Shown here: in pieces, positions 21,859-49,973 of the stretch | Layout of the letters: each line of letters opens with the position of its first letter | Position numbering within the stretch: position 1 is the first letter of the stretch | From: Lophium mytilinum | Taxonomy: Eukaryota | NCBI GenBank assembly: GCA_010093605.1 | Contig: MU004194.1 | Coordinates: 1,030,323-1,094,322 of the forward strand | Direction of reading: 5' to 3' | Length of the DNA stretch: 64,000 bases | The notes under the pieces: model-generated | Seen by the model: only the letters and a program-made list of their open reading frames with translations | Databases searched by the model: none | Told to the model about the DNA's origin: nothing | Translations under genes and position numbers: made by a program

Positions 21859-22475
21859 TGTATCGTCAGAGTGATGCAAACTATCAGCTGAGTCTGGATA
21901 ATGGTAAGGTTGAGAAGTACGAGCTTCCGCTGATTGATGAAGAGACGGGTGAGTGAACGATTGAGTGCGGGGACAGCTTTGTCACTCTACCCTCACCAGT
22001 CGCAATCGGGGTGCCAATATATCCACTAACTCACCAACCGCCATACCCGCACACAAGACTGGAAAGGAAGCTCTGTGAGCTGAGGGTATGCACATAGCTC
22101 ACGAGGTTGAACTGCAATGCCTCGAAGGTTGATTCCGCCTTGCTAAAAGTAGGGAGGAGCTAGCCCAAAACTGTCTACTGTTTCCGAGGCTTCTTTGACG
22201 CTTCAAGCTTCATTCCCCATTCGTCCCGTAACCTTGGTCGTTTATTCATGGTCCGCACCCTGGTCTCGTATATGAGTGTCATATGATTCTGCAAAGAGTG
22301 TGTCTAGAGGATGGCGTGGATGGCTAGAGTGACGCTATAGTACTGCGCCTCCACATTCCTTGTCTGCAGCGGGAACACAAGACAGGTGCCAGTATAAGAG
22401 AAGCCAGAATCCGAGGCGATTTGCTTGCAGTAAGAGGCCTCTTGCGACCGAAGATTCTTGTCATCTAGAATTACA

Positions 22476-23165
22476 ATGGCTGGCAAGGGCGAGTATGTAG
22501 ATGTCACCAAGCAGACCGAGGACTATGTCGACGTCACAACGGCACCACCGGCATATAATGAGCCTAGTGAAGCGGAAGGGTCGACTTCTGAGAGCAGGGC
22601 CTATATTGACGCTTTGAAAGCAGATGCCAAAGGGAAGGAACATGGGTAGGTGGTCCGGCTGAGAAGGAACAGGCGTTCACAGTTATTTTACTGTTTCATC
22701 TCGCTAACCTCACTATTCCTCAGGCAAACTCTAAGAGAATCATCGAAAGAAAGCTCGTCGAAAGCTGAACTATCAATCGCCGAAGAAGTAGCATTAGACA
22801 TCCGCTCCCTAGACGTCGGCGACCCGAATGAGTCCATTTCAGTGCCCATGATTTTGTCCACCGAGAAGCGCTCTTTTAAGTCTTTCATCAAGGGAAGAAG
22901 CGGCGAAATTTCTCAGCAAGTCATTGTGCGAAAGATGACGCGAGAACATTACAAGAAGTTCTATGCCAAAGATAAGAACGGTAATTACATCGGCACCGAG
23001 AAGGCAGCTCCGGACGCTGGACTGGTATTCGTGCCGTCCAAAAGCACATCGGAGGATATCTTGGAGCAAGTGAAGAAGGTTGCGTTTGGGAAGGAGCATT
23101 ATATTGATGGCTTTGGGGGTGCTTACGGTTATGGAGGAGCCGGAGGTGCGTACGCGGCTATGTAG
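22476..23165 (+). CDS. Hypothetical protein (two exons)
   Basis: ATG at 22476 (MAGKGEYVDV) and an intron ending CTAAC...CAG at about 22723 join to the ORF VIVRKMTREHYKKFYAKDKNGNYIGTE. Confidence 0.65.
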
Positions 23166-24781
23166 ACTCCGGGCGAATAGTGAATATGTTTCTAAACGCC
23201 GTCTCAGATGCTTGAATTCGCTGGGCTACTATGATTCTCATCCCGAATGGAACGATAGTCTGTTAGCGGATATAAGAGCGTTCAAGACGCCTATTATCCA
23301 ACGGGACGCCTCGAGAAGACCCTGCTGGCGCAACATGCCCCAACTCCAGGGCCCATTCATCGAGCGTCCTATCCTATAGTTTCATCAGCTTCATTGGCGT
23401 CACCAGAAACATGACTGTCGTGTCCCCTTTCCACTCTCGTGCTTTCGGCGCCATACTTGTTTGTCCTTGGCCTCAACAGTATTGCGATACTGCCTCCTCT
23501 GATGATCAAGAAACGCCACAAATGTGTTTCATTGAGCCTTGAGTTTTCAATGTAGCTAAGTAGTCATAGCTCACTGCCCGCCAGGTTTATTGTGGATAAG
23601 GTGTCGCATGACAGAGACCATAGTCCGTTGTGAAATCGCCATCCCTTCAATAACCCCAAGCCCACTCAGTCTCCTCAGACTAGCGGGCCTTACTTCTTGG
23701 AGGAGACGTCTATTTTCATGCATGTAGACTAGAGAAGATATCTGTTACGCAGGACGGACAATGGTAGGTAGCAATCGGTAGCTTTCAGAAGCCCCATCCA
23801 TTTATTTTATATGAGGTTCTCACGTATAGGAAGCAGCTACAACCGCTTCTTTCTCTATTCTCTAGCTTTCTCATACATTTTTGGGCACACCATAAGTCTA
23901 AATTGTAGACGGGCTGAGCCCGCGGACGGCTGACGGCAGTGATGGCTCAATTTAAGACCTACCTCTGCGCTTTTCGCAGGCTCGCACGATATCAGCCACC
24001 GCCGTCTTGAGGATCCGAACGATCAATTGGTGGCGTCCATTTGATTTTGTTCAGAGAGACGATTCTTTTGTGTAACGATTGCCGAAAAGGAATCATGGAG
24101 ATAATCAGTTGCGAGTAGTGCCTCGTCGCAGTATATCTGAAACCCCTCTTGAGTTGACCGGTGAAGCATGGGTCTCGTATTCGGTCCACGTACTGTCCCA
24201 TTTACACCTACAGAGAGGCGACACTCTGCGGGACATCAAGATGGAGGTCCACGATAGATATTCTCCTGTTGCTCCTATTATTACGCCGAAGTGACCGGCA
24301 CAACTTGCACCCCCACGCGCCTAACAGAGCCCATGCAGCCGACATAGACCTTCACCGGCTTCTAGAAACAACGGATGGCGTTTTGCGTGGAGCGGCACGC
24401 AACGGACTCGAACCCCTGGTGAGGAAGAGTGCGGCAGATCAGCAGATGCCCCTGGCGTGGCACTGTGCATCGCGGGGCGCTCCGAAAAACGTGTCTCGGA
24501 TCCCCCCCCAAACCTCACCGTAGCCAGCCACCACCTCAACCACCTTCCCAAGTCATCTCCGTTCACACCACGCTTGAGCTCACCGCACCGAAGTTGAAGC
24601 GAGTTTTCAATAGATGAAGACGGCAGACGCGGCGCCATCTATCTCTCGCCTCCGGCACTTGTCTGATCTTCTACATATGGAACACTTCAGGCAGCTAACA
24701 TAGCCGCGCCGCTATCATATATCTGGATTCAACGCCGCCTGTAGCTCCTCTCTAGGGCTGCCACAATGCATAAGGCGAAGA

Positions 24782-25477
24782 GCCATGATGATTTAGATCA
24801 GCCACGAGCCGGAGCTGGTGGCCCAGTGCGTCGTGGACGCTTTCTCTAGCACGGCTCGCAGAATCACAGACCTCAACCCTCGAAAAGGGCCTCCTAAGCT
24901 GTGCCCCTAGCACGCCACCTTACCTTCTTCTTCAGCCATCTCAAGCTTCGGCGTGGGAGAGTGCTTCAAGAGAGGCGCGAATGTCTTCCGGCACCTGGAC
25001 ATTCGCGAGACCACCGGCGCCGAAGAGGCATGGCGGCCTCCACTCGAATAATACGTCAACGCATTGCGGAGCCAGTTCAAATATGATGTCGACCGCTTTC
25101 TTCCCCGACATTCCGTAACAGCCAAGACCGTTGAAGAGTCGATTCACAGAGCTCTCAGAGGGACTCGACCGGCCCTTATGTATTGGCAAGACGAAAGGCT
25201 TCTCCCCACCAATCCGACGACGCTCTCTCGGCCTCGGTATGTTCGCAGCTCGCCCGCGTGGCAAGAAGGGCGCTGCCTTCGAAACTGTCCTGTGTGCATG
25301 GCACGCGCCATGCCGCTGACAGGCGTGCGACAATGCTCGTGGCGAAGGGCCGTCGAACGGCTTCTGTGCTTCTTCGGGACGCAGAGAAGCGACTCTGCAG
25401 CCCGCCATGCCGTCTTGGCCCTTTCTCCCCGCATTCGCCCGGCCTATTCTTGTTACTACTGTCTGAGGCCACGCTGA
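24782..25477 (+). pseudogene. Degenerate gene with possible C-terminal MYND-like finger
   Basis: One frame reads as coherent protein but is interrupted by TAG 24794, TAG 24908 and TAA 25049. It ends CPVC...QCSWRRAV..LC...QRSD...RH, like a decayed MYND finger. Confidence 0.35.
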
Positions 25478-26056
25478 TCACTAGCATCGCTCAGACGTCC
25501 AGTGCTGCCCCTGCAGCCGGATTTCTACTCTCCAGTGCCATTGATTGGCGCTGTCCGCTAAAATCCACTCCGTGTTACGCCTTCTATCGCGTGAACCACG
25601 GCCTCACCTCGTTTGGGCCTGCTCGGGCGGGATGATCACGGAGACTTTTCCAGACTGGGTTGGTGCCGTGAAGGCGAACGGTAAGAGCAGAATCGATAGC
25701 ACCCTAAGCCCTAGATGCACTCAACCGTTGCTATAGTATGAGGGGTAGGGAGTTCATCGAAACCTTCTAGAGAAGACCGTGCCTCACCATTCCCCAAGTG
25801 CCTGGGACTATCTGCACATCGCGGTCACAGACCTCACCTTATCCACGCGGGTGGAGGCAGACGTGGCCTGGGGCCGGGCCTTTGAGACTGGTGGATATAT
25901 CTTGACCCCAGCCCCCCTAGACTCGGGTAGTAGGAAATACGAAGACCAGCTCTCTGCTGCAAAGCACATGCCATCTGCATTATCAATATACCCCCCCATC
26001 TTGTTATCCTAAAGCCATCCTTGAAGCTTTCGTTTCTTTCCTCTCCCTGACCCACC

Positions 26057-27564
26057 ATGCCTGGAGGCATCCACACTCCCCTCTCGGTCCTCCTGGCCTG
26101 GCCCAAACCCAACTTTGTGGATCCTGTGACAAGAAACTGGACGATTCCCGCCATTTTGATAGTCGCTTTGTCAATAACGACCCTTGTATTGGGTGCTCGC
26201 TTTTGGGCAAGATTCGTCATCCAGAAGAATGCAGGACTTGACGATTGGTTAATCATTGCTGCTCTGGTCAGTCCAAATGAGCTGCACTCTCTACTTGAAT
26301 ACACACTGACCTCTTAGCCTGGTGTATATGGACTCACTATTACTTCTTGTCTCGGTAAGGTGGACGCAGTGAACGCGACGTAGCCCATCGCTGACCAGAT
26401 CATGCAGGCGCAAGAATACTTGGGTTCCAGGTTCATTCATGGGATCACACACCAGAGCTTGCTGTGACAAGCCGTAAGGTAGGACGCAGATACGAAACTC
26501 GATATTCCCGTGCTTACAGCGCTGCAGGCAGTCGTGGCAATCGAACTGCTCTACATTTTTGCAGTTTTCCCGACGAAGATCTCCATTCTGTTCTTTTATC
26601 GACGAATGGCAGTTGGCAGCATATCCAAGAACTTCATTCTCTTGGTATGGGCCAGCATTGCCTTCGTCATTGCATATGCCGTTGTCTTTTTAATCGTCCT
26701 GCCCCTCACATGTACTCCCGTCAATGCCTTTTGGGATCAATTCGATTTCAGCCCCGGGGGATGGCCAGCGACGCACGAATTCCACTGCCATCCGGAGTAC
26801 AAATCGCTCTTTGCTGCATCTAGCATTAGCATGGTTCAAGACATCATAGCCGCCGTTATGCCCATCATGCTCCTCTGGAACCTCCAGCTTCCTCGTCGCC
26901 AGAAATTTGCGATCTACGGTATCTTTGCCCTCGGCTTGCTGTAAACTACACCCATATCACCCTCCATCCGTTCAATTATGCTAATAAAAGCACCAGAACC
27001 ACAATCTGCGGCGCAATGCGCATTTACTACGTACACTTCGTCTACTTCGAGACCTACGACATCTCCTGGGAATGTCTTCCAGGTTGGCTCTGGAGCTGCA
27101 TCGAAGTCGATCTCGCCGTCATCTGCGCATCGGCCCCGGCCCTCAAGGTCTTCTTCCGGCGCTACCTCAACATGTCCTCGCGCAGCGGCCGTAGCGGCCA
27201 CAGCATGGGGTATATCCAGAACCTCGACCGGCCGTCGGAAAACTCCCGTTCTCGCAACTGGAGTAACCAACTCCACTCCGCGTCATCACCGCTGCCGCCC
27301 GATGGTATCAAGGTGTCGACCGGCATGGATGTTACGATCGAGGATCGAGGGGATAGCACGTCGGATTTGGAGGCTGGCTCGACGAGGAGTAGCAAGGAGC
27401 TTACGAGTTTGCCGAATGTTGGCCATAGCAAGGCGCTGCCCAGTACGCCGAGGGACTCGAGACTGCAGACCGGGTCGAAGACGACGGTATTTGCGGCGTT
27501 TGGACCGAAAGATATGGGTGATGGGGAGTGGCAGGAGAGGGCTGGGAGGGGGTGGCGGCGGTAA
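26057..27564 (+). CDS. PTH11-like / fungal rhodopsin-domain integral membrane protein (no CFEM)
   Basis: MPGGIHTPLSVLLAWPKPNFVDP, RFWAR..GLDDWLI, TKISILFFYRR, CTPVNAFWD, QDIIAAVMP..LWNLQLPRRQK, IEVDLAVICASAPALK. Several short introns. Confidence 0.88.
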
Positions 27565-28429
27565 CGGACTTCCCTTTTTTACTGCGATTTAAAAAACATC
27601 GATGATATCTAATTAAGCTGCCAAATGAAACAATTATTGTATACCTTCTGGTCGAAGCTTGTGTCAACGCTCATGCTCGGCTAGCGGTATAGTTGGACCT
27701 GTTCAGAGACGCGGTCTTCTATATTATCCCGTATTCCACGACTGTATTCCATATATCATCATACGTGCTTGATCGCTACTAAGTACTGCATTTGGCGGGT
27801 TCCCCTCAATAGGAAGGAGCTGTCCACGAGTAGGTACTCCTAAAGCCCCCCCGCCCCCCACTCCCTCCCTAGATTACACGGTTACAAAGGGCACAATCTC
27901 TTCGGGCTTGTTTTGTACACTTGTGAAGCACTATCTAAAGTCCTCCAAAAGACCATTAAACACTTCGACCCCTATAATTTTGGCAAATCCGACAGTTCTC
28001 TCGACAACCCCAGACGATGTCGCACTGAGAAACGTCGAATAGCTCTGGCGTTTGAAGTCTAGTCCAGACTGCTTCCAAGAATTCCGAGATTCACACAATA
28101 CATTTGTCTGTCGACATTTGGTGATGAGCGTCCATTGAGCCCACAATCGACGAGAGAAATACCTAGCAATGGGGCCAATAATCTGCTATGGAGTGGGGTA
28201 ACACGGTGCCCTACCTAATTGGGTGGCCTACAAGCTAGACCTAACAGGGTCGCTACGTAGCTGTTTATAGTTTCGTCTTATCGATTAAACGGTAGCACAA
28301 CTCACATCAGCTCAGCTTCAGCTCCTGAGCTCTCCCGTAACACCAGCCTGCCCAACACTTGCAGCTTCATCAAACATTCACGGCAGAGTTTGTCCAATCA
28401 TCCTCCAATTGCAACCACGCCCATCCACC

Positions 28430-29326
28430 ATGTCGAAACGAGTCGCCCTCCTCCCGAAGCCCATCCCCTCGAACGAGGTCAACGTCGGCCAACTCCTCGT
28501 GCACCCCCTCCACCCCGAAATCGACGGCTTCTTTAGCGAGACGAAGGCCGCTGACGTCGACGAATTGAACGACTACTTCATCCAACTCCGCTACAAGGAC
28601 CTGTTCAGCGTGGACACCGAGGGCCGCTTCGCCCAGAATTTCGGCGCCAAGTTCGACCTTGGGCAAGTCTATCGGAAGCCCAACCTGCTGAGCGTGACGG
28701 TCGAACAGATGGTCCAGCGCGTCTCCAAGCATCCCTACGCCAGCTTCGCGACCGTGTGCGAGGACCCCGAGGCGCAGGCGTGGATCGCCGAGCTGGCGAA
28801 AGAAGAGAAGGCCTGCTACATCGTGCTCGGCATCACGGAGTTCAAGAACGCAGTGTTCAAGCGCGCGGTGCTTCAAGATGGTGGCGTGAGCAACCGGCTC
28901 AAGGAACAACCGATCGAAAAGGGGGCGAAAGTGCCACGGTCAGTGCGCCGAGACAGCACGCTGGGCTTGGGCACGGAGGCGCACCTCAGTGGCGTGTTCG
29001 GCATGGACGTGCGGCGTATCAAGGCCAGGGTCTCGAGGGTGCAGGAGCCGCATACTATCGAGGACCTGAAGTGGAATTGGATCTACTACGACTTGCCTGG
29101 CTCGCCGGGCTTGCAGCTCATGATTGGGCTTGGGGAGAGCTTGAAGGCGGAGGAGCTGCGATTGATGCTGGATCTGAGCGAGGAGGAATCGAAGACGAAC
29201 TTGGAGGTTATTTCGAGCTTGAGTATGGATGCGTTGCATGCTGCTGCGTCGCCGATGTTGAGGCCTAGCTCACCTGCACTGCGTGGTCGATCGCCGTCTC
29301 CAAATCCGGCCACTATGCGGCTATGA
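28430..29326 (+). CDS. Putative fungal gasdermin-like protein
   Basis: Intronless 298-aa ORF whose motif order (VNVGQLLVHP, beta-rich segment, FATVCEDPEAQAWI, CYIVLGITEFKNA, GVFGMDVRRI) parallels RCD-1/HET-Q1-type gasdermins. Product is inferred by eye. Confidence 0.6.
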   Translation: MSKRVALLPKPIPSNEVNVGQLLVHPLHPEIDGFFSETKAADVDELNDYFIQLRYKDLFSVDTEGRFAQNFGAKFDLGQVYRKPNLLSVTVEQMVQRVSKHPYASFATVCEDPEAQAWIAELAKEEKACYIVLGITEFKNAVFKRAVLQDGGVSNRLKEQPIEKGAKVPRSVRRDSTLGLGTEAHLSGVFGMDVRRIKARVSRVQEPHTIEDLKWNWIYYDLPGSPGLQLMIGLGESLKAEELRLMLDLSEEESKTNLEVISSLSMDALHAAASPMLRPSSPALRGRSPSPNPATMRL

Positions 29327-31048
29327 TTGGTTTCAGGGACTACGAAGAGATACAGGGAGCTCTAAGCAAGGGGCATAGGAAGGAGCAACGGGAGAGGTCT
29401 TCAAAGGGTTATGGGAGAACAATATGCACCGCGTTGAGCGTCTGCACTGGGGACTAATGAGCAATATTCTGGGTTTTACGGCGTTCTGGCACTTCCACTC
29501 TGGCGAGCATCAAGTCTGTATAGGGCGACCCGTTCTATACCCAATGACATCCTCCAATCTTTGGACTCTCATTTACCGCTGCATGGAGTGCCTCATACTA
29601 TTCTCCGCATTCCGAATGTGAGCGGAATTCGGCAATTGGGACAATTAGGAAACTTGCGAGGCTACCCCAGTCTGCCAGACAGCTCCAGCAGGGTATAGCC
29701 AGACTGGAAATGTACACACAGCTCTCATGCCCGTTCTTTTTACAGTGCCTTGAGTTCTGGGTACCCTTGGTCATCGCCGTTGGGGTGCGCCGTGGCCTCC
29801 CAAAAACAGAACTGGCAACATGTAAAGCCTTCGCAAGCTTCAATTAGAGGGATTCCACTCGCTGAAAGTCGACAGACTTGCCGCTGTTTAAAGTGCCCCA
29901 GCACCTCATCCTAAACCGAGACTAGATGAAAAATAGCCTGTGTCCTGGTACGCTTTCCACCACCACCAGGAATAGTAAGGCTACCAGAGGGCTAGCCAGT
30001 CAAAACGCGGCTCACATTCCGCTTTCTAAAACTTGACTTCGCTCCTATATTAGAGGAATCCCGTAGAGAGTGTGCACAGCAAGCTTCAACATATTCCTCT
30101 CGCCAAACGTCATGGTATTGTGGGCCATCGGCCATCCCAGCCCCCTGTCGCTAAATTAACACGTCAACCCTCATACGATGGATTTGCAACCTTCGCACCG
30201 TAGCCTTCCGAAGATATTAAAACCGTGATTTCGCAGTCCTAGACAGCAACTGCGCCAGGTATTATGCCACGCTTGACCATCTTTTAACGTCCTTGAAAGA
30301 AGTTTTTTTGGGCTATTATATCCTACCACCTAGAATCTCTTAGCCCTGACTTCATACCAAAGGCTACTATATTACTAGCGAAAGTTCGCCTCGTTCTATG
30401 GCTTGTCCCAATCCTGGTGTTCTTTGTCGGCCATGGGAACTCTTCGAGCTTGTTCGCGATCTGGTGCTTGAGCCCTTCCACCGCAGGAAGCCATCTGGGA
30501 GGCCGTGTGCTACAAAGAGTGCTGTATTGGAAGGACAATAAAAGGAATGCATTGCATGGTGCTATCTGTGAGTTGGTATATCGCCATAGATCTGAGTGTG
30601 GGCTAACGAGCAAAGCCTATACCGTCGGATTAAAATCGTTTTCGAGACAGCCGCGAAGGAGTTCTGGTTTAGGATTTGTAGGCAGCTACTCCTGATATTT
30701 ATCTTCTTTGACAGTCGTGAGGCGTCTCCGTATGTTTACCGTATACGCAGCAGTAGCACAAGAGCAGTAAAATTCAAAATGTGTGGTCTATTTTCATTGA
30801 AGCTGTGTTGTGTATCTGAAGAGAAGGAAACGATGGCCCTTGCGGAGCACCCAGTGTCCCGCCAGGTGAATAGACTGAATGGTCCACGGCCGCTCGCAAT
30901 AGAAGGCCGATAGTAGCCACCAGAAGCGCCAGTTCACCTATATCTACACCCTCCAAATCCAGTTCCACAGCCTGCATCACACCTACAACCTCTCGAATCT
31001 CTACAACACGAACTCTCTTTTCACACTTCCTCGCAGCATACAGACATC

Positions 31049-32018
31049 ATGTCGGGCAACCAAGAGCCAACAATGGAGGAAAAGATGCAAGCCCGCGAGG
31101 CCGAGGTGCGGGCTTTGCTAGCCAGCTCGCCGGAAGCCCAGCAGGAACTGCAGAGACTGGCCGCCGAGAGGATCGCCAGCGTCCTCGGCCAGGCCACGAC
31201 GACGGGTGGCTCTTCGCGTGCTGCTGCTACGATTGGTGATTCTTCGCGTGTTGTTGCCACGGAGGGAGGCGCCGACGAGCAGCAGGCCGGTGTGCAAGCC
31301 GAGCAGCAGACGACAGGTACAAGTCCATCCCTTCTAAGTAACAATCATAGATCTAACTCCAACTCTTCCAGTGCATGAAGCCCTAGGTGCAGCAGCCCAG
31401 GCCATAGAGCAGCAGCAGACGTCAGGTACAGTGAAATCCATCTCTTCTAAAATTTTAACCATAGATCTAACTCTAGTTCTTATAGGACAAGAGGTCCTGG
31501 ATGCGGCAGCCCAAGCCGTGAGGCCCATGGGTAATCCATATGATCTGTATCACCACGTGAAGCTTAGCACTCATCTAGTTGACTTCTTGAAGTCGACGGT
31601 GATGATCCTCAAGGTTTCCGAGTGGGACCAGCTCATTATGGCGCCGATCCCTGGCCACGTTATCGTGCTCGCGATGACTAGTAACGACACTTGTGTTCCC
31701 ATCTGTGTGGCGGACTCGTCGCTGCTTCATGCCAAGGAAGTTTCTGGCTACGCGCAGGGCCCTGCCGACGGTCCTAGCCACCAGCACCAGCACGCGGAGT
31801 CCAGTGGAAAGGGAAAAGAACCCGCTGGTGTTCAGTCCGAGGGCGCAGTTGAGGGTCCAGCGGTCGGAGGCCCCGCTGTCCTTCAAGCGGAGGGTGCTGG
31901 CGAGGGTGCTGGTCAACATGCCAACGAGGGTGACGCCGCGGGTGCCACGACCTCCATGCAGCCTGAGGACGACGGAGACCAGGAGGGACTCTCCTCCCAG
32001 GAAGCGAACAACGAGTAG
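31049..32018 (+). CDS. Orphan Ala/Glu/Gln-rich protein (three exons)
   Basis: ATG at 31049; phase-1 introns 31317-31371 and 31426-31485 with CTAAC branch sites give one continuous frame to TAG at 32018. Confidence 0.6.
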
Positions 32019-32820
32019 AGCAATCTACACTCTACGAGTCAACCAAGTAAGCGATATCAATAACCGCATGCTTTCAAATCAACACCTTACTTACTCTGGT
32101 ATAGGAACTGTCTAACACCGTCTGAAAGCCCCCAGCACATGTTTATTTCCCCCCCGAAACGCAACGACTACTAGACGCTAGATCGACCTGTGGGATAGAG
32201 AACTGGAAAAACGGACTTGATATCTTGGTTACAAAAAGAACGGAGCTGAATTGGACTGTCTGCTGAGGAGACTTTGGAATGACAATGGAAGTCTATACCT
32301 CACCAAAAGTCTGTTTTCACTTGCCTGCCACTGTCTGGCATGGCTCAACACATCACAGAAAAAACTCACCTTGAACCAGTGCAGACGTCGTGAATGAAAC
32401 ACAGTGCAAAAGAAGTCGTGAAGTCGCTAAGTGCGGGGAACCGCTCCCCGCAACCTGCCTTTCTTGCCTCATCTGGAAGGTCAGGCCTCCAGGGTAAGCT
32501 TCCACGGACCATCGGAGTACCGAGTCTGATTGGAGAGCAACTGAGCTCGAATAAGAGCCATATCTAGTATAGGACTTCCTAACCCCACCTTTGGACCCGA
32601 TATCACGTCACTTAGCGGCCGATGAGCAACGCGGCAGGCACGGGTAGGTTTATTAAGGCGTTGCTTCCCAAATATCGAGGTGAGGATTTTACATACTTGC
32701 TTATACAGATCATTGAAACCGTTCGAGTTACTACAGTAGTTGTTCATAGCCTGTCGTTCTGCCTTTAGAACATCGTCAACACCAAGTCGAGGTTTGCCAC
32801 CAGCCGCCACCACACTCAAA

Positions 32821-34004
32821 ATGGATCCACCACCAAGGAAGATAGATCTAAGCGGGACACCACGTGAGGTGAATGCTCTACTCTCAACTTCCTCGTTGTA
32901 ATGCTGAAACCATGGCCCCAGATCGGCCTCAAACACGGCGAACTTCTCACCACCGAAATCCGCCGCCAAATCGAGACCTACGACGCCATGTTTCAGCAAA
33001 CCTCCAAGCTCGATTGGCCCGCCGTGCGCGAAGTCGCAAAAGAGTACCGCTCAACCATCGAACGTCTGACTCCAGATATCTACACCGAAATGGTTGGGAT
33101 AGCCGACGGCGCTGACCTCGACATCCTCGATATCGTCGCGCTGAACTGCCGGAGCGAGATCGCATTAGGGTTGTTCTCGGACGGGTGCTCGAGTCTGGGG
33201 TGGAAGGTGGCAGGCGATGGGACGGTGCTGGCGCAGAATTGGGACTGGACGAAAAGGGTCAAGCCAAATTTGGTAATGATGTCGATTAAGCAGGTGGACA
33301 AGCCGACGATTTATATGGTTACGGAGGTAAGTTGAGTATTTGTTTTAATTGGTGGTGTTCGAGGTTGATTTGTATAGGCTGGTATCGTTGGAAAGATTGG
33401 CTTCAACTCGCTGTCAGTAGGCACATTGTTGAACGCTGTGCGAGCTCGTCCGACCATTCCTTCGAAAGTCCCGATTCATGTAGCACTCCGAGTCTGTCTC
33501 AACTCGGTTTCGGCTGCAGCGGCTATCGCAGAGTTAGAGACGCTGGGAGGTGTAGCAAGCTCGCAGCACATCCTCATCGCAGACAATGACGGCCCGATTG
33601 GTCTGGAGGTATCGCCACATGGCAGTGTTCACCTCAAGCCGGACAGCAATGGCATTGTGGTTCACACGAACCATTTCATCGAGAACCGCTTAGTCGACGA
33701 GCGGCCGTGGCTTGCGGGATCGCCCATTCGCCTCGAGAGAATGAAGAAGCTTACGAGCGAGCTGGTTTCAAGTGGGGAGGCTCCTAAAGGAGACGTGTTA
33801 CGACAGAAAGTGTTCTCTGACACCTTCAACGCGCCACAAGCCATCTGCTGTAAGGAAGATCCGTCGAGGCCTTTGCCAACCCGGAGTAGCACGTTGTTTT
33901 GTATTGTCATGAACTTCGCGAAGGGCATAAAGCCAAGCGCTGAGCTGGTATGGGGTATGCCGGGAAGTGGAGATGAGGGCGGGGTGTTGAGTATGCCATG
34001 GTAG
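32821..34004 (+). CDS. Peptidase C45 / acyl-CoA:6-APA acyltransferase-like Ntn hydrolase (IAL-like)
   Basis: MDPPPRKIDLSGTPRE|IGLKHG, EMVGIADGA..LDIVALNCRSEI, autocleavage site DG|CS, AQNWDW, TEAGIVGKIGFNS, HTNHF. Introns 32869-32921 and about 33327-33377. Confidence 0.9.
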
Positions 34005-34217
34005 ATGGTTGGAAGATGCGAATTTTGGCGCGTAGAGGTGGGAGATGAGATGGCACGGACGCTGATCAGCCTCTCCCTCACTGACCAGCGCCCAACATGA
34101 ACTCAAAGAGGAATTCTAGACCAGCAATAGTCATCTTGAAAGTTTGATATTTTGGCGAGTAACTTCCCAATTAACGAAGAACTGTGGCCGACTTCCAAGA
34201 AGGCTACTACCCATTCT

Positions 34218-35333
34218 TCAGGGACGCGGAATAATTGCATCCCAAGCCACGCTGCCTCCTTCGACAGCTCCTGAGAACCAGTTTCCAAGCTTGAGTTCTT
34301 CGAGATCAGCGTCAAAGCTAAACTGCTTCCCTCGAGGTACGCTAGGGTCTATAATTCTGGGTTCTACCGCAACGCCCTCAACATTCTTGCTCTTCCACCA
34401 CTTAGCAATCTCCGCATTGATGTCGACCTCTAGAACAAACGGACTGTTCGCCTGCAGTACTACTGCGACCTGAAAATCCAATGGTAATCCCGCTTTGCTG
34501 TCTTCGTTCTCGGCCATTGTCCATATGCATTTCGACCGTGGAGTTCCTCTGGCGGAGCCTTCAATTCGCATATAGTGATCCACGATCCGATCATGGGTCT
34601 TCTCAGCCGACGGCGTGATGGAGAAGTAGCCACCCGGGGCCTGGAGCGGTGCTGATAGTCCAAGAGTCCAATGCGATTCGCCTTTGCTATAACCTCCATA
34701 AGCAGTCCGAGGTGCATGGAAAGCGACAACCGGAGTACCGTCCTTCTTGGCCTTGGATGCCTTAGCAGAAGTGAAGCTGCAAGACAGCCGTGCGTTCTTG
34801 AAGCGATGGCTAAGAGCAGGATGAAATGTGAACTGGAGTATGACAAGGCAAGCCGGACTCCTGCTGCCGTATTTGTGTGCTGGTTGGATAGTTGTGATCT
34901 CGCAGGATATGTAACAAGACGACACTTCGATTTCAAAGAGAGGGTCGTTCCAGTCTCTGTCCACAGCCGGGCGTGTGACAGGGGAGGCGACACGTCGGCT
35001 CATAGGAATTGGAAGAGAGTATGAAATCGACTGTGGGACTCCCTCTTCGGTTTCCAGAGAACTCGGGTCTATGATGATGTCGTCTGAATATGGAATTGTG
35101 AATTCTCCGTCGTTACTCTCGATAACATCGACATCCGTCTCAACTTCCAAAATCTCGTCTTCGGTCGAAGCCGGTTCGCCATCATCCTTGAAGTGGATTT
35201 CGAACGGTTCCAATTTGGGACCTGGATTTCCTTCATGATGTTTACTGGGATAAAAGAGCCACATATAAACGACAAACGCTATGAGGAGTGAAACAAGAAC
35301 AGCGGAAATAGTGGGCGCAGCAGGATGCCGCAT
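34218..35333 (-). CDS. Hypothetical membrane-anchored protein with beta-rich domain
   Basis: 371-aa intronless ORF: N-terminal TM (AVLVSLLIAFVVYMWLFY), acidic linker, domain ACLVILQFTF..RFKNARLSCSF..WTMAENEDSKAGLP..VAVVL. Confidence 0.7.
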   Translation of the reverse strand: MRHPAAPTISAVLVSLLIAFVVYMWLFYPSKHHEGNPGPKLEPFEIHFKDDGEPASTEDEILEVETDVDVIESNDGEFTIPYSDDIIIDPSSLETEEGVPQSISYSLPIPMSRRVASPVTRPAVDRDWNDPLFEIEVSSCYISCEITTIQPAHKYGSRSPACLVILQFTFHPALSHRFKNARLSCSFTSAKASKAKKDGTPVVAFHAPRTAYGGYSKGESHWTLGLSAPLQAPGGYFSITPSAEKTHDRIVDHYMRIEGSARGTPRSKCIWTMAENEDSKAGLPLDFQVAVVLQANSPFVLEVDINAEIAKWWKSKNVEGVAVEPRIIDPSVPRGKQFSFDADLEELKLGNWFSGAVEGGSVAWDAIIPRP

Positions 35334-36293
35334 CTTGGGATTAGGAAAGCCGATAGAACAAGGTTCGTGGTCGACATAAAAAGAACGCCAGCGCTATCAA
35401 AAGAGGACTCTGTCACCCTGGACGAGTTTTGGTGTTTTGCGAACTAGATTGCAAGGGTTGGGAGGGACCGGGGCTCAAGATATCGAGAGGTCTTCGCAGT
35501 GTTACGTCATCTACACCGCCGACCGCTTCCCCACACAAATTGTACACTTTGCTTTTGTTCATCCATCTCAACATATCATCAATCTCTAGCAAAGTTCTCT
35601 AGCATAATTCTCTGGCACACCTACACTCTCGCGAACACCTTCATTTCAAAGTTATCAATTCATTCAATACAAGCCCAGATCCACTTAGGCTAACTAACGT
35701 AGGTCACGTGCCGCGCGAAGAAGCCGTGCAAGTTCAACAACAGTCTTTTGAGGCAAATATTTAGTGCGTAATTTCTGATTCCAGTGTCTGATTTCCCTAG
35801 TACGGTCGTTTACATTGGCGTAAAGAGGTGTTCGAAAAAAGAGCACCTCAGCCCTGAAGGATAAAGATGAAATTAATTTCGTGAATCATCGTCTCCGTAA
35901 GCAGTCGTCTGGACCTTGGACTACACAACCTCATATCCGTGTATTCTGTCGGTGTTAAGCAAGTTCAGCTGTGGGAATGGTAGTTCTAAAGAGGGAACAA
36001 GTGGTATTTCCTGGTATCTGCTCAGAGTCAACCATGGAAGACACCTCTCGGCCCTATGGCTCTATATCTATCTAATCATTCTCATTGCTTCGCTTCCAAG
36101 AAAAACTATCTGCGGCCACGTCTTCTAACTCTCCTCTTGTACATTATACCTATATAAGGAGCACCCACCCGCCTACAAAATTCTTGTCATCTCATCTCAA
36201 ATATTACCAACTCATCCACCATCACCAACTTATCCAACATCACCACCTCATCAAAATTCTCCAACTCCCCCAACATCCTCCAACCCCACCAAA

Positions 36294-48028: not shown

Positions 48029-49973
48029 ATGTCGGGCGCTGAAGTGGGTGGTCTGGTCCTTGGTGGCATCAGCCTCGCAATCGCAGCTGTCGAGCATTAC
48101 AACAACCTCTCTCAGACTGCCCACGGCCTCAAAAACTATCATTGCACACTTCAGCAACTAAAACTCAACCTCATCATTCAGCAGGATCAACTTAAGCAAT
48201 CTCTAAAGCAGCTAGGGTTCGATGACTTTTCAATCCCTTCCACACGTCATGCGCTACAAGACCGTATCTACTGCGGCCGTCCAGACCTCGAGCACCCCGA
48301 AATGGTAGCTGTGATTATCTAGTCCATCAAAGAAATGATAGAAGGACTAAGGGAGAAACTCAAGAAATGCGACGATACGCAGCGTAAAGTGAGTGCATCC
48401 CATGAATGTTTGCACAACTGACATTGACTGACCAGCATCAGAGTAAACCGGCGAAGGCGTGGAACCGGTTCAAGCATACATTCACCGCGAAATTCCGCAA
48501 AGGACTAATGGAAGATCTACAACACTCTAATTCCATGTTGGCCCACTACGTCAAGAGATCAAAAATAGCACGACACACTTTTGACATCGTCCCAGTCATC
48601 CAGGAAGCCCGGTCTCAACACTCGTCTTCAAAATGTGATGCAATGCGGGTCCATGCTTTGGCGGTATTCGACTCTTTCAAGTCCTGCTGGAAATGCTCTT
48701 GCGTCGATCCTCACCAAACCGGGATACGATTCGATAGTTCACCTTCGACTTCTCATGCTCCAGTCTTGGAGGTGGCATTCAGGACTTTCGACACTCCGCA
48801 CGGGCAAGATCCGCTTCCTCAGCATGACGACGAGACTCCGTGCTGGATCGAGACAGTCGCAAAATTCGAGACCGTAGCAAGGCCAGATCTTAGACCCGAT
48901 CTCGACACATCCAGTGCTTCGTCGGCCTCAGCATCACAGCAGTTTTCCCAACGCAAACTAGGCAAGATGCCGGAAAAGCAATATGCTCAGTTTACGTCGC
49001 AAATGTTGCAACAAAAGAAGAAATCTGTGTCTGGCCAAACCTCAGCTCAGCTAAATGTCCTTACTTCGAAACCTGGCGCTATGGCCTCAATCAGTAAGCA
49101 ATGAGCTTCTAAGCTAGAACCTTCGTTCAATATCAACAGCTAACGAAAGACCTATCAGCAAAGCCAACTGCACCTGAAGTCGAGTGCTTGTGTGCAGCCC
49201 TTCGTCGACAGGATTTCCAGGAAGGTGGCTTATCTCGAGTTAAGGCCAGCTCCAAACGGCGAATCATGATTACAGTCACCAATACGGAATCCAAACCGCA
49301 CCTAACTCGATACCAGACACTCGATTCTTTTATCGGTCTCTCCGGACGTTTTGACCTGATATCTCGTGTCCAGCGCCTCGATATAGCATATGCTATGGCT
49401 ACCATGCTTCTCCACCTCGGTGAAACACCCTGGCTCAATCCGAAATGGGGTAAAGAGCATATTGGTCTAGCACTCGGGAAACAAGACGCGACACCGAACA
49501 TAATTCCTCAAGACGTCCGCGTCCTCCACGAGTTCCAGTCCCAAGCCAGCCCTGTATCTCCTTCGCGAAACCTTATGGAAAATTCTGGGAGAATTAACTC
49601 GCTGGGAAACCCTAATCCAGCTATGCTTTCTCTGGGTATCCTACTCATTGAGCTTTGCTTAAATGAAGATCAGTCTGCGCTTCTCAGCGCAGCTTTCAGC
49701 GGCTCCTTTTCGCCTGATACCCGAGAACGCAAGATCTGCGAAATCATTGAGCGGGTCTACCTTGAAGGTGGTAATTTTTATGGCGCTGCTACAGAACGAT
49801 GTCTCCGATGCCAGTTCACCGGTCCTGCTGCAACGAAGACCTTTTTAGACAGAAGTTTCCAGGAAAACTTCTTCAAGGACGTGATAGCGCTGCTACAGGT
49901 GACCTACGAAGTATCGCGCGATACCACTAGGCTTTCGGGAACTCGCAGTCCGAGTCTACAAAATTCGACGTAG
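48029..49973 (+). pseudogene. HeLo-like N-terminus plus kinase-like C-terminal helical domain, single premature TAG
   Basis: MSGAEVGGLVLGGISLAIAAVEHY N-terminus; in-frame TAG at 48320-48322. Introns 48389-48435 and 49094-49158 otherwise give an intact frame through QRLDIAYAMA..TPWL..LSLGILLIELCL..YGAATERCLRCQF. Confidence 0.6.

What the first reader, a model, noticed from the sequence alone, without database searches (positions are those of the whole stretch)
28430..29326. Probable divergent gasdermin with no subtilisin or CHAT partner nearby
Seen: the order LLPKPIP..VNVGQLLVHP, alternating beta segment (KDLFSVDTEGRFAQNFGAKFDLGQVYRKPNLLSVTVEQM), helix FATVCEDPEAQAWIAE, strand CYIVLGITEFKNAVF, second hairpin, SGVFGMDVRRI, then a ~95-aa C-terminal extension. 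Established: Neurospora RCD-1 and Podospora HET-Q1 are gasdermin-fold cell-death proteins with this pattern, and HET-Q1 is activated when the subtilisin HET-Q2 removes a C-terminal inhibitory piece. Inference: a gasdermin whose tail may be inhibitory. No S8, CHAT or caspase gene is visible in the window, so any activator is unlinked or unconventional.
Basis: partly seen in the sequence, partly recalled or inferred. Interest (0 to 1): 0.75.

Follow-up and report, generated by a model that had tools for sequence, protein, structure and literature searches.

The report
Conserved fungal gasdermin with invariant tail
This intronless fungal gene encodes a divergent gasdermin-type (pore-forming cell-death) protein that, unlike known fungal gasdermins, is a slowly evolving single-copy gene with no neighbouring protease and an almost invariant serine/proline-rich tail that may control it.

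Summary
The 298-aa ORF at 28430-29326 (+) is real, unspliced and under strong purifying selection. It is present in spliced-RNA contigs.

Two AlphaFold models were searched with two independent structural aligners. The better model has pLDDT 87. Both aligners rank only gasdermins on top: RCD-1-2 at Z 8.9, and 12 of 12 chains with Z>=5.

By sequence, phmmer links the protein to two proteins listed as het-Q1 homologues in the published fungal gasdermin survey (E 1.2e-7 and 1.2e-4). Its own orthogroup is absent from that list (0 of 9 accessions).

The "~95-aa extension" is not: the core runs to about residue 247, and the true add-on is about 50 aa.

The orthogroup is atypical in four ways:
- It appears as one copy per named species among Pleosporales-type Dothideomycetes, at 57-92% identity.
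- It forms one short-branched clade inside a fast-evolving family.
- No S8, CHAT or caspase gene lies in the window (0 of 176 ORFs) or beside 12 orthologous loci (0 of 132 ORFs).
- Tail residues 273-293 (ASPMLRPSSPALRGRSPSP.P) are the most conserved part of the protein, and the constraint acts at the protein level.

Best reading: a latent pore former regulated through this tail, either by phosphorylation or by an unlinked protease. Neither pore formation nor regulation has been tested.

The parts
28430..29326 (+). Complete intronless CDS including stop, 298 aa (P0001)
   Evidence: ORF list and translation. Orthologues of 296-305 aa share the same start and end. A spliced-RNA contig is colinear from 28470 to 30567 with no joint inside the ORF. 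20 of 21 listed differences to a close relative are synonymous.
28430..29170 (+). Gasdermin-like core, residues 1-247: twisted beta-sheet with long strands 47-61, 86-99, 129-150 and 186-203, and helices 102-124
   Evidence: AlphaFold2 model m18b09361c313: mean pLDDT 87, pTM 0.79, core blocks 82-98 apart from one loop block (171-180) at 70. VIA-align: 12 of 12 chains with Z>=5 are gasdermins, led by RCD-1-2 at Z 8.9, rmsd 4.6 A, 156 residues aligned. Foldseek ranks 1-9 are all gasdermins. Distant ~240-275-aa relatives align to query residues ~5-255.
29114..29137 (+). Q229-L-M-I-G-L-G-E236, in the last beta-strand of the core. This is the family-wide motif QL.(I/V)GLG and lies at about the position where HET-Q1 is cleaved (after F238, region G234-G241)
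   Evidence: Conserved across the wide family alignments. Strand 228-237 in the model. HET-Q1 cleavage mapping read in passages of PMC8851545. The positional equivalence is an inference: no HET-Q1 sequence was available to align.
29147..29245 (+). Predicted long C-terminal helix, residues 240-272 (ELRLMLDL, an acidic run, NL.AIS.LS.DAL). Residues 248-272 carry net charge -5
   Evidence: Helix 240-272 in model 2, with block pLDDT falling from 85 to 58-69. Majority-residue conservation 0.85 over residues 248-272. Charge.
29246..29308 (+). Near-invariant Ser/Pro-rich basic tail, residues 273-293 (ASPMLRPSSPALRGRSPSPNP). It holds four Ser-Pro sites (S274, S281, S288, S290) and R285-x-R287-x-x-S290. 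Predicted disordered.
   Evidence: Invariant columns S274 P275 L277 S280 P282 L284 R285 G286 R287 S288 S290 P291 P293 in 30 orthologues. Majority fraction 0.94, against 0.78 for the core. Nucleotide conservation at codon positions 1/2/3 is 0.86/0.95/0.60 in 14 sequences, so the constraint is on the protein. Block pLDDT 51-57. The reading as kinase motifs is recalled, not tested.

Best explanation
The gene encodes a divergent member of the fungal HET-Q1/RCD-1-type gasdermin superfamily. Residues 1-247 form the pore-forming-type core. A lineage-specific tail of about 50 aa follows.

It belongs to a slowly evolving orthogroup, seen once per named species, in Pleosporales, Mytilinidiales and Gloniaceae-type Dothideomycetes. 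This orthogroup arose once inside an otherwise fast-evolving ascomycete family.

Proposed mechanism (inferred). The protein is made as a latent cytosolic form. The C-terminal helix (240-272) and the near-invariant Ser/Pro-rich basic segment (273-293) act as the control module. Release would come either through phosphorylation or dephosphorylation of the four invariant Ser-Pro sites and the RxRxxS site, or through cleavage near the QLMIGLGE strand by a protease encoded elsewhere. Release would let the core oligomerise and insert into membranes.

Conservation, single copy and ordinary neighbours point to an endogenous role in development or stress-induced cell death, not to allorecognition.

Shown: the gene is real and constrained; the fold; the sequence link to het-Q1 homologues; the absence of a linked protease; the conservation pattern of the tail.

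Inferred: pore formation, autoinhibition, the mode of activation and the biological role.
For: Gene reality:
- ORF of 298 aa.
- 136 homologues, with the 120 listed at 57-92% identity and 86-100% coverage.
- 20 of 21 listed differences to a close relative are synonymous.
- Contigs that skip GT..AG introns in neighbouring genes cover the ORF colinearly in two runs.

Fold:
- Model 1 has pLDDT 73. Model 2 has pLDDT 87 and pTM 0.79, with all five models at 84-87.
- VIA-align against 48,161 chains: 12 of 12 chains with Z>=5 are gasdermins for both models. RCD-1-2 scores Z 8.9, the RCD-1 pore 8.6, RCD-1-1 7.9-8.0, and bacterial gasdermins 7.6 and 6.6-6.7. The best non-gasdermin scores 4.8 and rank 50 scores 2.8.
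- Foldseek: 6 of 6 hits at E<=1e-3 (model 1) and 2 of 2 (model 2) are gasdermins, with probability up to 1.00.
- The ESM Atlas independently returns PF26164 Bact_GSDM and a Gasdermin D cluster.

Sequence link:
- phmmer of P0001 against 1.84 billion representatives hits P0183 (E 1.2e-7) and P0196 (E 1.2e-4).
- These are CUS09401.1 and RMZ88442.1. Both are listed as het-Q1 homologues in Dataset S1 of PMC8851545, the second paired with a CHAT protease.

Atypical biology:
- All 30 tail-bearing sequences form one clade (SH-aLRT 100). Their terminal branches are 0.02-0.23, against 0.24-2.8 for the other 45 rows.
- No protease domain in 176 window ORFs, nor in 132 flanking ORFs of 12 orthologous loci.
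- The tail is the most conserved segment, 0.94 against 0.78 for the core, and the constraint is at the protein level.

Precedents:
- RCD-1 and TrichoGSDM are described as cleavage-independent in review passages of PMC12881547.
- A developmental role for het-q1 in Coccidioides is reported in passages of preprint 10.64898/2026.10.27.762035.
Against: - Structural scores are moderate. Foldseek TM-scores are only 0.23-0.42, rmsd is 4.3-7.2 A, and identity is 9-15%.
- The aligner's own note says a best Z of 7-8 is common for models without true relatives.
- Direct sequence searches find no gasdermin: Pfam (0 families at E<=10), PDB by phmmer or family profile, and PADLOC (0 of 75 members).
- The tail is modelled with low confidence (block pLDDT 51-69), so docking on the core is not predicted.
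- A beta-amphipathicity scan gave 6% of windows above the 95th percentile, which is chance.
- 20% of published het-Q1 homologues also lack a neighbouring protease. Absence of linkage alone is therefore not unusual.
- The kinase-motif reading is recalled consensus knowledge, not a test.
- There is no functional data for any member of the orthogroup. No paper in the searched library mentions the four orthologue identifiers tried.
Confidence: 0.6

Rival explanations
1. An ordinary protease-activated fungal gasdermin whose cognate S8 or CHAT protease is simply encoded elsewhere in the genome. On this reading the conserved tail is only the inhibitory peptide plus the protease recognition site.
For: The published survey found 373 of 1,884 het-Q1 homologues (20%) without a nearby protease, mostly in genomes that contain other gasdermin/protease pairs. 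The same survey lists S8- and CHAT-paired gasdermins in Mytilinidion, Lepidopterella and Glonium, so such proteases exist in these genomes. The family-wide QL.(I/V)GLG strand lies where HET-Q1 is cut.
Against: Protease-paired fungal gasdermins belong to fast-evolving branches. This clade evolves slowly and is one per species. A disposable inhibitory peptide would not be expected to be the most conserved 21 residues of the protein, nor to consist of four Ser-Pro sites plus an RGR motif. No protease was found next to any of 12 orthologous loci.
Confidence: 0.25
2. A gasdermin-fold protein that no longer forms pores and serves a non-lytic conserved cellular function, with the tail acting as a docking motif for a partner.
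For: The high conservation, single copy and housekeeping-type neighbours resemble a core cellular gene. The beta-amphipathicity scan found no signal above chance. The paper on gasdermin family evolution, PMC8742441, speaks in its title of loss of pore-forming functionality; only its search listing was seen.
Against: The four long strands typical of gasdermin cores are confidently predicted and conserved. The closest structural matches include pore-state RCD-1 (Z 8.6). There is no positive evidence for another function.
Confidence: 0.12
3. An RCD-1- or HET-Q1-type allorecognition (heterokaryon incompatibility) determinant with antagonistic alleles.
For: The closest solved structures are RCD-1-1 and RCD-1-2. 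RCD-1 also needs no protease (review passages).
Against: Orthologues are 57-92% identical across orders. The related strain or species in run X3 differs almost only synonymously, 20 of 21 listed differences. Each named species appears once in the list, for example one 90% cluster seen on 29 contigs for Plenodomus lingam. Terminal branches are short.
Confidence: 0.02
4. Not a gasdermin relative at all: a beta-rich protein whose model resembles gasdermins by chance.
For: TM-scores are low and Z is below 9. No Pfam, PDB-sequence or PADLOC match was found.
Against: Two aligners and two models give only gasdermins at the top, 12 of 12 at Z>=5, covering residues 1 to about 249. An independent sequence link exists to two published het-Q1 homologues. 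Atlas hits point to gasdermin Pfam families. Published het-Q1 homologues likewise miss RCD-1 by phmmer, so the sequence misses are uninformative.
Confidence: 0.04

Closest known systems
HET-Q1 of Podospora anserina and the 'het-Q1 homologue' family of Clave et al. 2022 (PMC8851545)
   Same: The core has similar size (about 240-250 aa) and is followed by a short C-terminal segment. Sequence similarity to two listed family members is significant (E 1.2e-7 and 1.2e-4). A conserved hydrophobic-Gly strand lies at about the position of the HET-Q1 cleavage site. The fold is gasdermin-like.
   Different: - The orthogroup is not in the published list: 0 of 9 accessions, although Mytilinidion, Lepidopterella and Glonium (three of the nine source species) were seen in it.
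- There is no adjacent S8 or CHAT gene in the window or in 12 orthologous loci.
- It evolves slowly and appears once per species.
- The tail is longer, basic at its end and Ser/Pro-rich, whereas the paralogues aligned here have acidic tails.
- There is no evidence of an allorecognition role.
RCD-1-1 / RCD-1-2 of Neurospora crassa (PDB 8jyx, 8jyy, 8jyz)
   Same: These are the best structural matches: Z 8.9, 8.6 and 8.0, with 152-177 residues aligned over model residues 1 to about 249. RCD-1 is also not protease-controlled (review passages).
   Different: Only 9-15% identity, and no sequence-level hit. RCD-1 works through two antagonistic alleles. This gene shows no sign of allelic divergence. 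RCD-1 proteins of 244-257 aa lack the conserved Ser/Pro tail.
Bacterial gasdermins (PDB 7n50, 7n52, 8sl0)
   Same: Same fold class (Z 5.9-7.6). A small core with a short C-terminal inhibitory peptide rather than a large C-terminal domain (review passages). Atlas clusters near the query carry PF26164 Bact_GSDM.
   Different: Bacterial genes sit next to proteases in defence islands. There is no PADLOC match (0 of 75). The gene is eukaryotic and belongs to a conserved orthologous lineage.
Coccidioides posadasii het-q1 / het-q2-like (preprint 10.64898/2026.10.27.762035)
   Same: A precedent for a fungal gasdermin with an endogenous developmental role, in disjunctor-cell death during spore-chain maturation (passages).
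   Different: That gene has an adjacent CHAT protease that phenocopies it. No such neighbour exists here. Relatedness to the Coccidioides protein was not tested.

Membership tests
Fungal gasdermin-like (HET-Q1 homologue) superfamily | Significant sequence similarity to accepted members | tested here: met
   phmmer of P0001 gives E 1.2e-7 to P0183 (CUS09401.1, Tuber aestivum) and E 1.2e-4 to P0196 (RMZ88442.1, Chaetothyriales sp.) against 1.84 billion proteins. Both are in Dataset S1 of PMC8851545. HET-Q1 itself could not be compared, because no sequence was available.
Fungal gasdermin-like (HET-Q1 homologue) superfamily | Gasdermin N-domain-like fold | tested here: met
   12 of 12 PDB chains with Z>=5 are gasdermins for both models, led by RCD-1-2 at Z 8.9. 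Foldseek top ranks are all gasdermins, with probability up to 1.00. TM-scores are low (0.23-0.42), so the member is divergent.
Fungal gasdermin-like (HET-Q1 homologue) superfamily | Neighbouring S8 or CHAT protease gene within 10 kb (true of 80% of listed members) | tested here: not met
   0 of 176 window ORFs and 0 of 132 flanking ORFs in 12 orthologous loci hit Peptidase_S8, CHAT or caspase domains. This is not strictly defining: 20% of listed members lack such a neighbour.
Fungal gasdermin-like (HET-Q1 homologue) superfamily | Cytotoxic pore formation after removal of a short C-terminal inhibitory segment | not testable with these tools
   This needs expression of full-length and truncated forms, liposome leakage assays and detection of processing.
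Fungal gasdermin-like (HET-Q1 homologue) superfamily | Already catalogued in the published survey | tested here: not met
   0 of 9 orthologue accessions are present in Dataset S1. Also absent are the paralogues KAF2728613 and KAF2442803 and the fusion protein EPS40245.
RCD-1-type allorecognition gasdermin | Deeply divergent antagonistic allele classes within a species | tested here: not met
   There is one 90%-identity cluster per named species. 20 of 21 listed differences to a 95-99% relative are synonymous. Terminal branches are short. Sampling within species is limited.
Pfam Gasdermin (PF04598) / Bact_GSDM (PF26164) | Match to the family HMM above threshold | tested here: inconclusive
   hmmscan gave 0 families at E<=10 for P0001 and no gasdermin family for 31 distant relatives. 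The local Pfam copy may not hold PF26164. The Atlas reports PF26164 on 13% of one neighbouring cluster and on a structure-aligned part.

The most novel reading that the evidence does not exclude
A cleavage-independent gasdermin gated by phosphorylation. In this reading the near-invariant tail (four Ser-Pro sites plus RGRSPS) is a latch controlled by a kinase or phosphatase. It ties a conserved pore-forming executioner to cell-cycle, MAPK or nutrient signalling. This would give Pleosporales-type fungi an endogenous gasdermin death or secretion pathway, developmental or stress-induced, that needs no dedicated protease or NLR sensor.
Probability: 0.25. Interest if true: 0.8.

Novelty: new variant of a known kind. 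Interest (0 to 1): 0.6.

Why it matters
Fungal gasdermins are currently understood in two ways. Most are seen as fast-evolving, immune-type genes switched on by a neighbouring protease. RCD-1 is the exception, switched on by antagonistic alleles.

This orthogroup is different. It is an uncatalogued branch that behaves like a conserved core gene. It has no linked activator. Its most constrained part is a disordered Ser/Pro-rich tail.

If the tail controls pore formation, it would show a new way to regulate a gasdermin. It would also point to an endogenous role in development or stress in a fungal lineage that, by recall, includes many plant-associated species. The idea is directly testable with truncations and phosphosite mutants in yeast.

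Tried and rejected
- **Pfam on the protein:** 0 families at E<=10. On 31 distant relatives: no gasdermin family.
- **PDB by sequence:** phmmer found nothing and the A2 profile found nothing at E<=10. The published het-Q1 homologues P0183 and P0196 also find no gasdermin in the PDB, so these misses say nothing about membership.
- **PADLOC:** 0 of 75 family members match a gasdermin model.
- **Profile search with A2:** saturated by the orthogroup, no new distant members.
- **Search for longer fused forms:** none scored among 4,151 candidates of 523-2000 aa, which the tool rates as weak evidence. The only fusion seen is P0151.
- **Whole-genome search:** Unlinked proteases and paralogues in this organism therefore could not be looked for.
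- **Synteny:** no window ORF from 14-46 kb other than the gene itself matches the 19 loci.
- **Beta-amphipathicity scan for transmembrane hairpins:** 6% of windows above the shuffled 95th percentile, which is chance and uninformative.
- **Run search:** no RNA holder is listed on record. My RNA reading rests only on the intron-skipping joints. Depth was 2.1 over the intergenic stretch 27604-28070 in run X1, and I draw no conclusion from it.
- **Model coordinates:** not exposed, so tail-core contacts could not be measured.
- **Complex prediction:** not run. The monomer model gives the tail low confidence, and a 'no support' result would not be evidence.
- **Earlier-findings look-ups:** nothing on this gene.
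- **Literature:** a search for four orthologue identifiers found 0 papers. A search combining gasdermin with Dothideomycete names returned, among the 15 rows listed, no paper holding 'gasdermin'.
- **Supplements:** those of the bioRxiv preprint were not seen.
Full report
**1. The observation**

The window holds an ATG-to-stop ORF at 28430-29326 on the + strand, encoding 298 aa. GC content is about 50-55% throughout. Neighbouring genes carry short GT..AG introns, and the best protein hits are Dothideomycete fungi, so this is a fungal chromosome. No whole genome is held for the window.

**2. It is a real, constrained, transcribed gene**

A word-indexed search found 136 homologues at E<=1e-3. The 120 listed are 263-332 aa long, 57-92% identical and cover 86-100% of the query. 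Where a name is given, it is 'hypothetical' or 'uncharacterized' or carries no function. The best hit is Mytilinidion resinicola at 92%.

In an alignment of 30 orthologues, mean column identity is 73%.

Contigs of run X1 are identical to the window. They skip eight short introns with GT..AG ends (CT..AC for one on the other strand) in neighbouring genes. They therefore derive from spliced RNA of the same strain. One such contig runs colinearly from 28470 to 30567, so the ORF has no intron.

Run X3 is a 95-99% relative and also shows spliced joints. It has 21 listed differences inside the ORF. Of these, 18 are at third codon positions and 20 are synonymous; the single replacement is I31L. The run search lists no holder on record as RNA, so transcription is my inference from the joints. 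Contigs give no information on expression level or strand.

**3. Fold**

Direct sequence methods are blind:
- Pfam gave 0 families at E<=10.
- The PDB gave nothing by phmmer or with a family profile.
- PADLOC gave 0 of 75 members matching a gasdermin model.

AlphaFold2 with 30 orthologues gave a best model of pLDDT 73, while the other four models scored 57-61. With a 75-sequence alignment that includes distant relatives (A3), all five models reached 84-87. The best has pLDDT 87 and pTM 0.79, with most core blocks at 90-98.

Both models were searched with two independent aligners.

Foldseek against the PDB:
- Model 1: 6 of 6 hits at E<=1e-3 are gasdermins (RCD-1 pore 3.7e-5, RCD-1-2, bacterial gasdermin 7n50).
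- Model 2: 2 of 2 hits at E<=1e-3 are gasdermins, and ranks 1-9 are all gasdermins.

VIA-align against 48,161 representative chains, for each model:
- Exactly 12 chains reach Z>=5, and all 12 are gasdermins.
- RCD-1-2 scores Z 8.9 (rmsd 4.6 A, 156 residues aligned).
- The RCD-1 pore scores 8.6, and RCD-1-1 scores 7.9-8.0.
- Bacterial gasdermins score 7.6 and 6.6-6.7. TrichoGSDM, GSDMA3, GSDME and GSDMD follow.
- The best non-gasdermin is a CDC-like pore former at 4.8, and rank 50 is at 2.8.

The alignments span model residues 1 to about 241-249. The ESM Atlas independently returns ascomycete clusters, PF26164 Bact_GSDM and a Gasdermin D cluster.

There are caveats. TM-scores are low (0.23-0.42) and identity is 9-15%. 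The aligner's own note warns that Z 7-8 is common without true kinship. The fold call therefore rests on the exclusivity and coverage of the hits together with the sequence link below.

**4. Family**

An exhaustive phmmer search over 1.84 billion representatives gave 87 hits at E<=1e-3. Beyond the orthogroup, these are proteins of about 240-275 aa at 20-38% identity. They align to query residues ~5-255 and lack the tail.

Named examples come from:
- Pleosporales (paralogues in Polyplosphaeria, Neocucurbitaria and Karstenula)
- Thozetella, a Sordariomycete
- Tuber
- Chaetothyriales
- Dactylellina

I then checked the published survey of 1,884 het-Q1 homologues (PMC8851545, Dataset S1; I read passages and the supplement tables). 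None of 9 orthologue accessions is listed. The survey did cover Mytilinidion (5 entries), Lepidopterella (3) and Glonium (7), three of the nine species those accessions come from; whether it covered the other six was not checked. Polyplosphaeria (2 entries) was surveyed too, and its shorter paralogue KAF2728613 is likewise absent; its orthologue accession was not looked up.

Two of the divergent phmmer hits are listed. P0183 is CUS09401.1 (E 1.2e-7; no protease found near it). P0196 is RMZ88442.1 (E 1.2e-4; paired with the CHAT protease RMZ88443.1).

The protein is therefore an uncatalogued, divergent branch of the HET-Q1-type fungal gasdermin superfamily. Those two published members also fail to hit RCD-1 in the PDB by phmmer. 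This shows that sequence misses mean little in this superfamily.

**5. What is unusual**

(a) Evolutionary rate and copy number. In a quick maximum-likelihood tree of 75 family members, the 30 tail-bearing proteins form one clade (SH-aLRT 100). Their terminal branches are 0.02-0.23. The other 45 rows have branches of 0.24-2.8. The sister of the clade is a tail-less 260-aa protein, P0124, with support 99. The careful tree search did not finish, so this is the quick tree. Each named species appears once in the orthogroup list. Two species, Polyplosphaeria fusca and Neocucurbitaria sp., also have a shorter paralogue.

(b) No linked protease. 0 of 176 window ORFs of >=90 aa hit Peptidase_S8, CHAT or caspase domains. 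24 nested alternative-frame ORFs were skipped.

I fetched 19 orthologous metagenome loci. Twelve of them have usable flanks. 0 of the 132 flanking ORFs of >=145 aa hit such a domain.

Gene order is not shared with the window. Seven loci share an upstream short-chain dehydrogenase, and four of these also share an acyl-CoA dehydrogenase. The window's own neighbours are ordinary: a carbon-nitrogen hydrolase, a fungal-rhodopsin-domain membrane protein directly upstream, an AAT-family acyltransferase and tRNase Z.

(c) The tail. After the last core strand (228-237, QLMIGLGE) the model has a long helix (240-272), with block pLDDT falling from 85 to 58-69. A disordered segment follows (block pLDDT 51-57).

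Conservation runs the opposite way. The majority-residue fraction is 0.78 for residues 6-247, 0.85 for 248-272 and 0.94 for 273-293. Invariant residues include S274 P275 L277 S280 P282 L284 R285 G286 R287 S288 S290 P291 P293.

In 14 coding sequences, third codon positions in the tail vary as much as in the core (0.60 against 0.64), while positions 1 and 2 are conserved (0.86 and 0.95). The constraint is therefore on the peptide, not on the DNA. Residues 248-272 carry net charge -5, and 273-298 carry +4.

The tail contains four Ser-Pro dipeptides, two copies of SP.LR, and R-x-R-x-x-S. By recalled consensus knowledge these resemble sites for proline-directed and basophilic kinases. This was not tested.

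**6. Mechanism**

The following is shown:
- a gasdermin-type core;
- membership of the HET-Q1-type superfamily;
- a conserved C-terminal add-on of about 50 aa;
- no linked protease.

The rest is inferred. Microbial gasdermins are held inactive by a short C-terminal segment. HET-Q1 becomes toxic when cut after F238, in the region G234-G241 (passages of PMC8851545; review passages). By analogy, I propose that the 240-298 segment is the control module of a latent pore former.

The distal 21 residues are the most conserved and consist of phosphorylatable Ser-Pro sites. I therefore favour control by conserved cellular enzymes: a phospho-switch acting directly, or one that gates access for an unlinked protease. 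I consider a dedicated co-evolving protease less likely.

Cleavage-independent gasdermins are known (RCD-1 and TrichoGSDM; review passages). A developmental role for a fungal gasdermin has been reported in Coccidioides, although there with an adjacent CHAT protease (preprint passages).

My odds are as follows:
- Gasdermin-fold member of the HET-Q1-type superfamily: about 0.9.
- Latent pore former controlled through the tail by any route: about 0.6.
- Specifically phospho-gated and cleavage-independent: about 0.25.
- Classic activation by an unlinked protease: about 0.25.
- Non-lytic function: about 0.12.
- Allorecognition gene: about 0.02.

**7. Novelty**

The kind of protein is known (fungal gasdermin-like proteins). 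This orthogroup is absent from the published catalogue. It is not mentioned under the four identifiers searched. It differs in evolutionary mode, linkage and tail. I rate it a new variant of a known kind.

Limits of this work:
- no functional data;
- no access to the organism's whole genome;
- no coordinates for measuring tail-core contacts;
- no HET-Q1 sequence for a residue-level alignment;
- the preprint's supplements were not seen.

Noticed in passing
P0151 (Dactylellina haptotyla EPS40245.1, 561 aa); not in the window: A family member in which an N-terminal PNP_UDP_1 phosphorylase-superfamily domain (residues 8-260, E 4.5e-7) precedes the gasdermin-like domain (residues 309-518). PNP_UDP is, by recall, a common N-terminal domain of fungal NLRs. 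The protein is not in the published het-Q1 list. It could be a true fusion or a merged gene model.
   Followed up: partly
Alignment A2, C-termini of P0131, P0134, P0136, P0137, P0144, P0145, P0156, P0158, P0160, P0171: Ten shorter paralogues end in an acidic run followed by a shared terminal motif, roughly D-(E/D)-G-(L/I/M/V)-(G/A/S)-G-F; in nine it lies at the very C-terminus. This second conserved tail type in the family may be a protease or partner recognition site.
   Followed up: no
window 26483-27561 (+); L003 5775-6755 (+); L012 11062-11967 (-): A gene with a Fung_rhodopsin (PF20684) domain lies directly upstream of the gasdermin-like gene in the window, with an intron at 26940-26997 according to RNA contigs. 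Similar genes lie within a few kb of the orthologue in two of the 12 loci. The window copy did not match those loci at E<1e-8, so this may be coincidence within a large family.
   Followed up: partly
L002, L003, L004, L009, L011, L012, L017 upstream of the orthologue: There is recurrent micro-synteny in the Pleosporales-like loci. A short-chain dehydrogenase (adh_short_C2) lies upstream in 7 of 12 loci. An acyl-CoA dehydrogenase lies beyond it in 4 of them (L002, L011, L012, L017). Neither is present beside the gene in the window.
   Followed up: partly
L002 9360-11130 (-): A HET-domain (PF06985) gene lies about 4 kb downstream of the orthologue in one locus. Such genes are, by recall, abundant in these fungi, so this is probably coincidence.
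   Followed up: no
window 28373-28939 (-), 28555-29265 (+), 28943-29269 (-), 29089-29361 (-): Long alternative-frame and antisense ORFs overlap the gene and give tblastn matches in the orthologous loci. None has a Pfam match. The matches are explained by conservation of the sense frame.
   Followed up: yes
window 49113-49970 (+): An ORF matches DUF7580 (PF24476, E 1.4e-13). It is an uncharacterised fungal domain about 20 kb from the gasdermin-like gene. No link is known.
   Followed up: no
window 22000-36000: The X1 RNA-derived contigs define introns in neighbouring genes at 22644-22723, 23143-23206, 26265-26317, 26353-26407, 26476-26526, 26940-26997, 30567-30616 and 32024-32095 (the last on the minus strand). 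These are useful for annotating the flanking genes.
   Followed up: no
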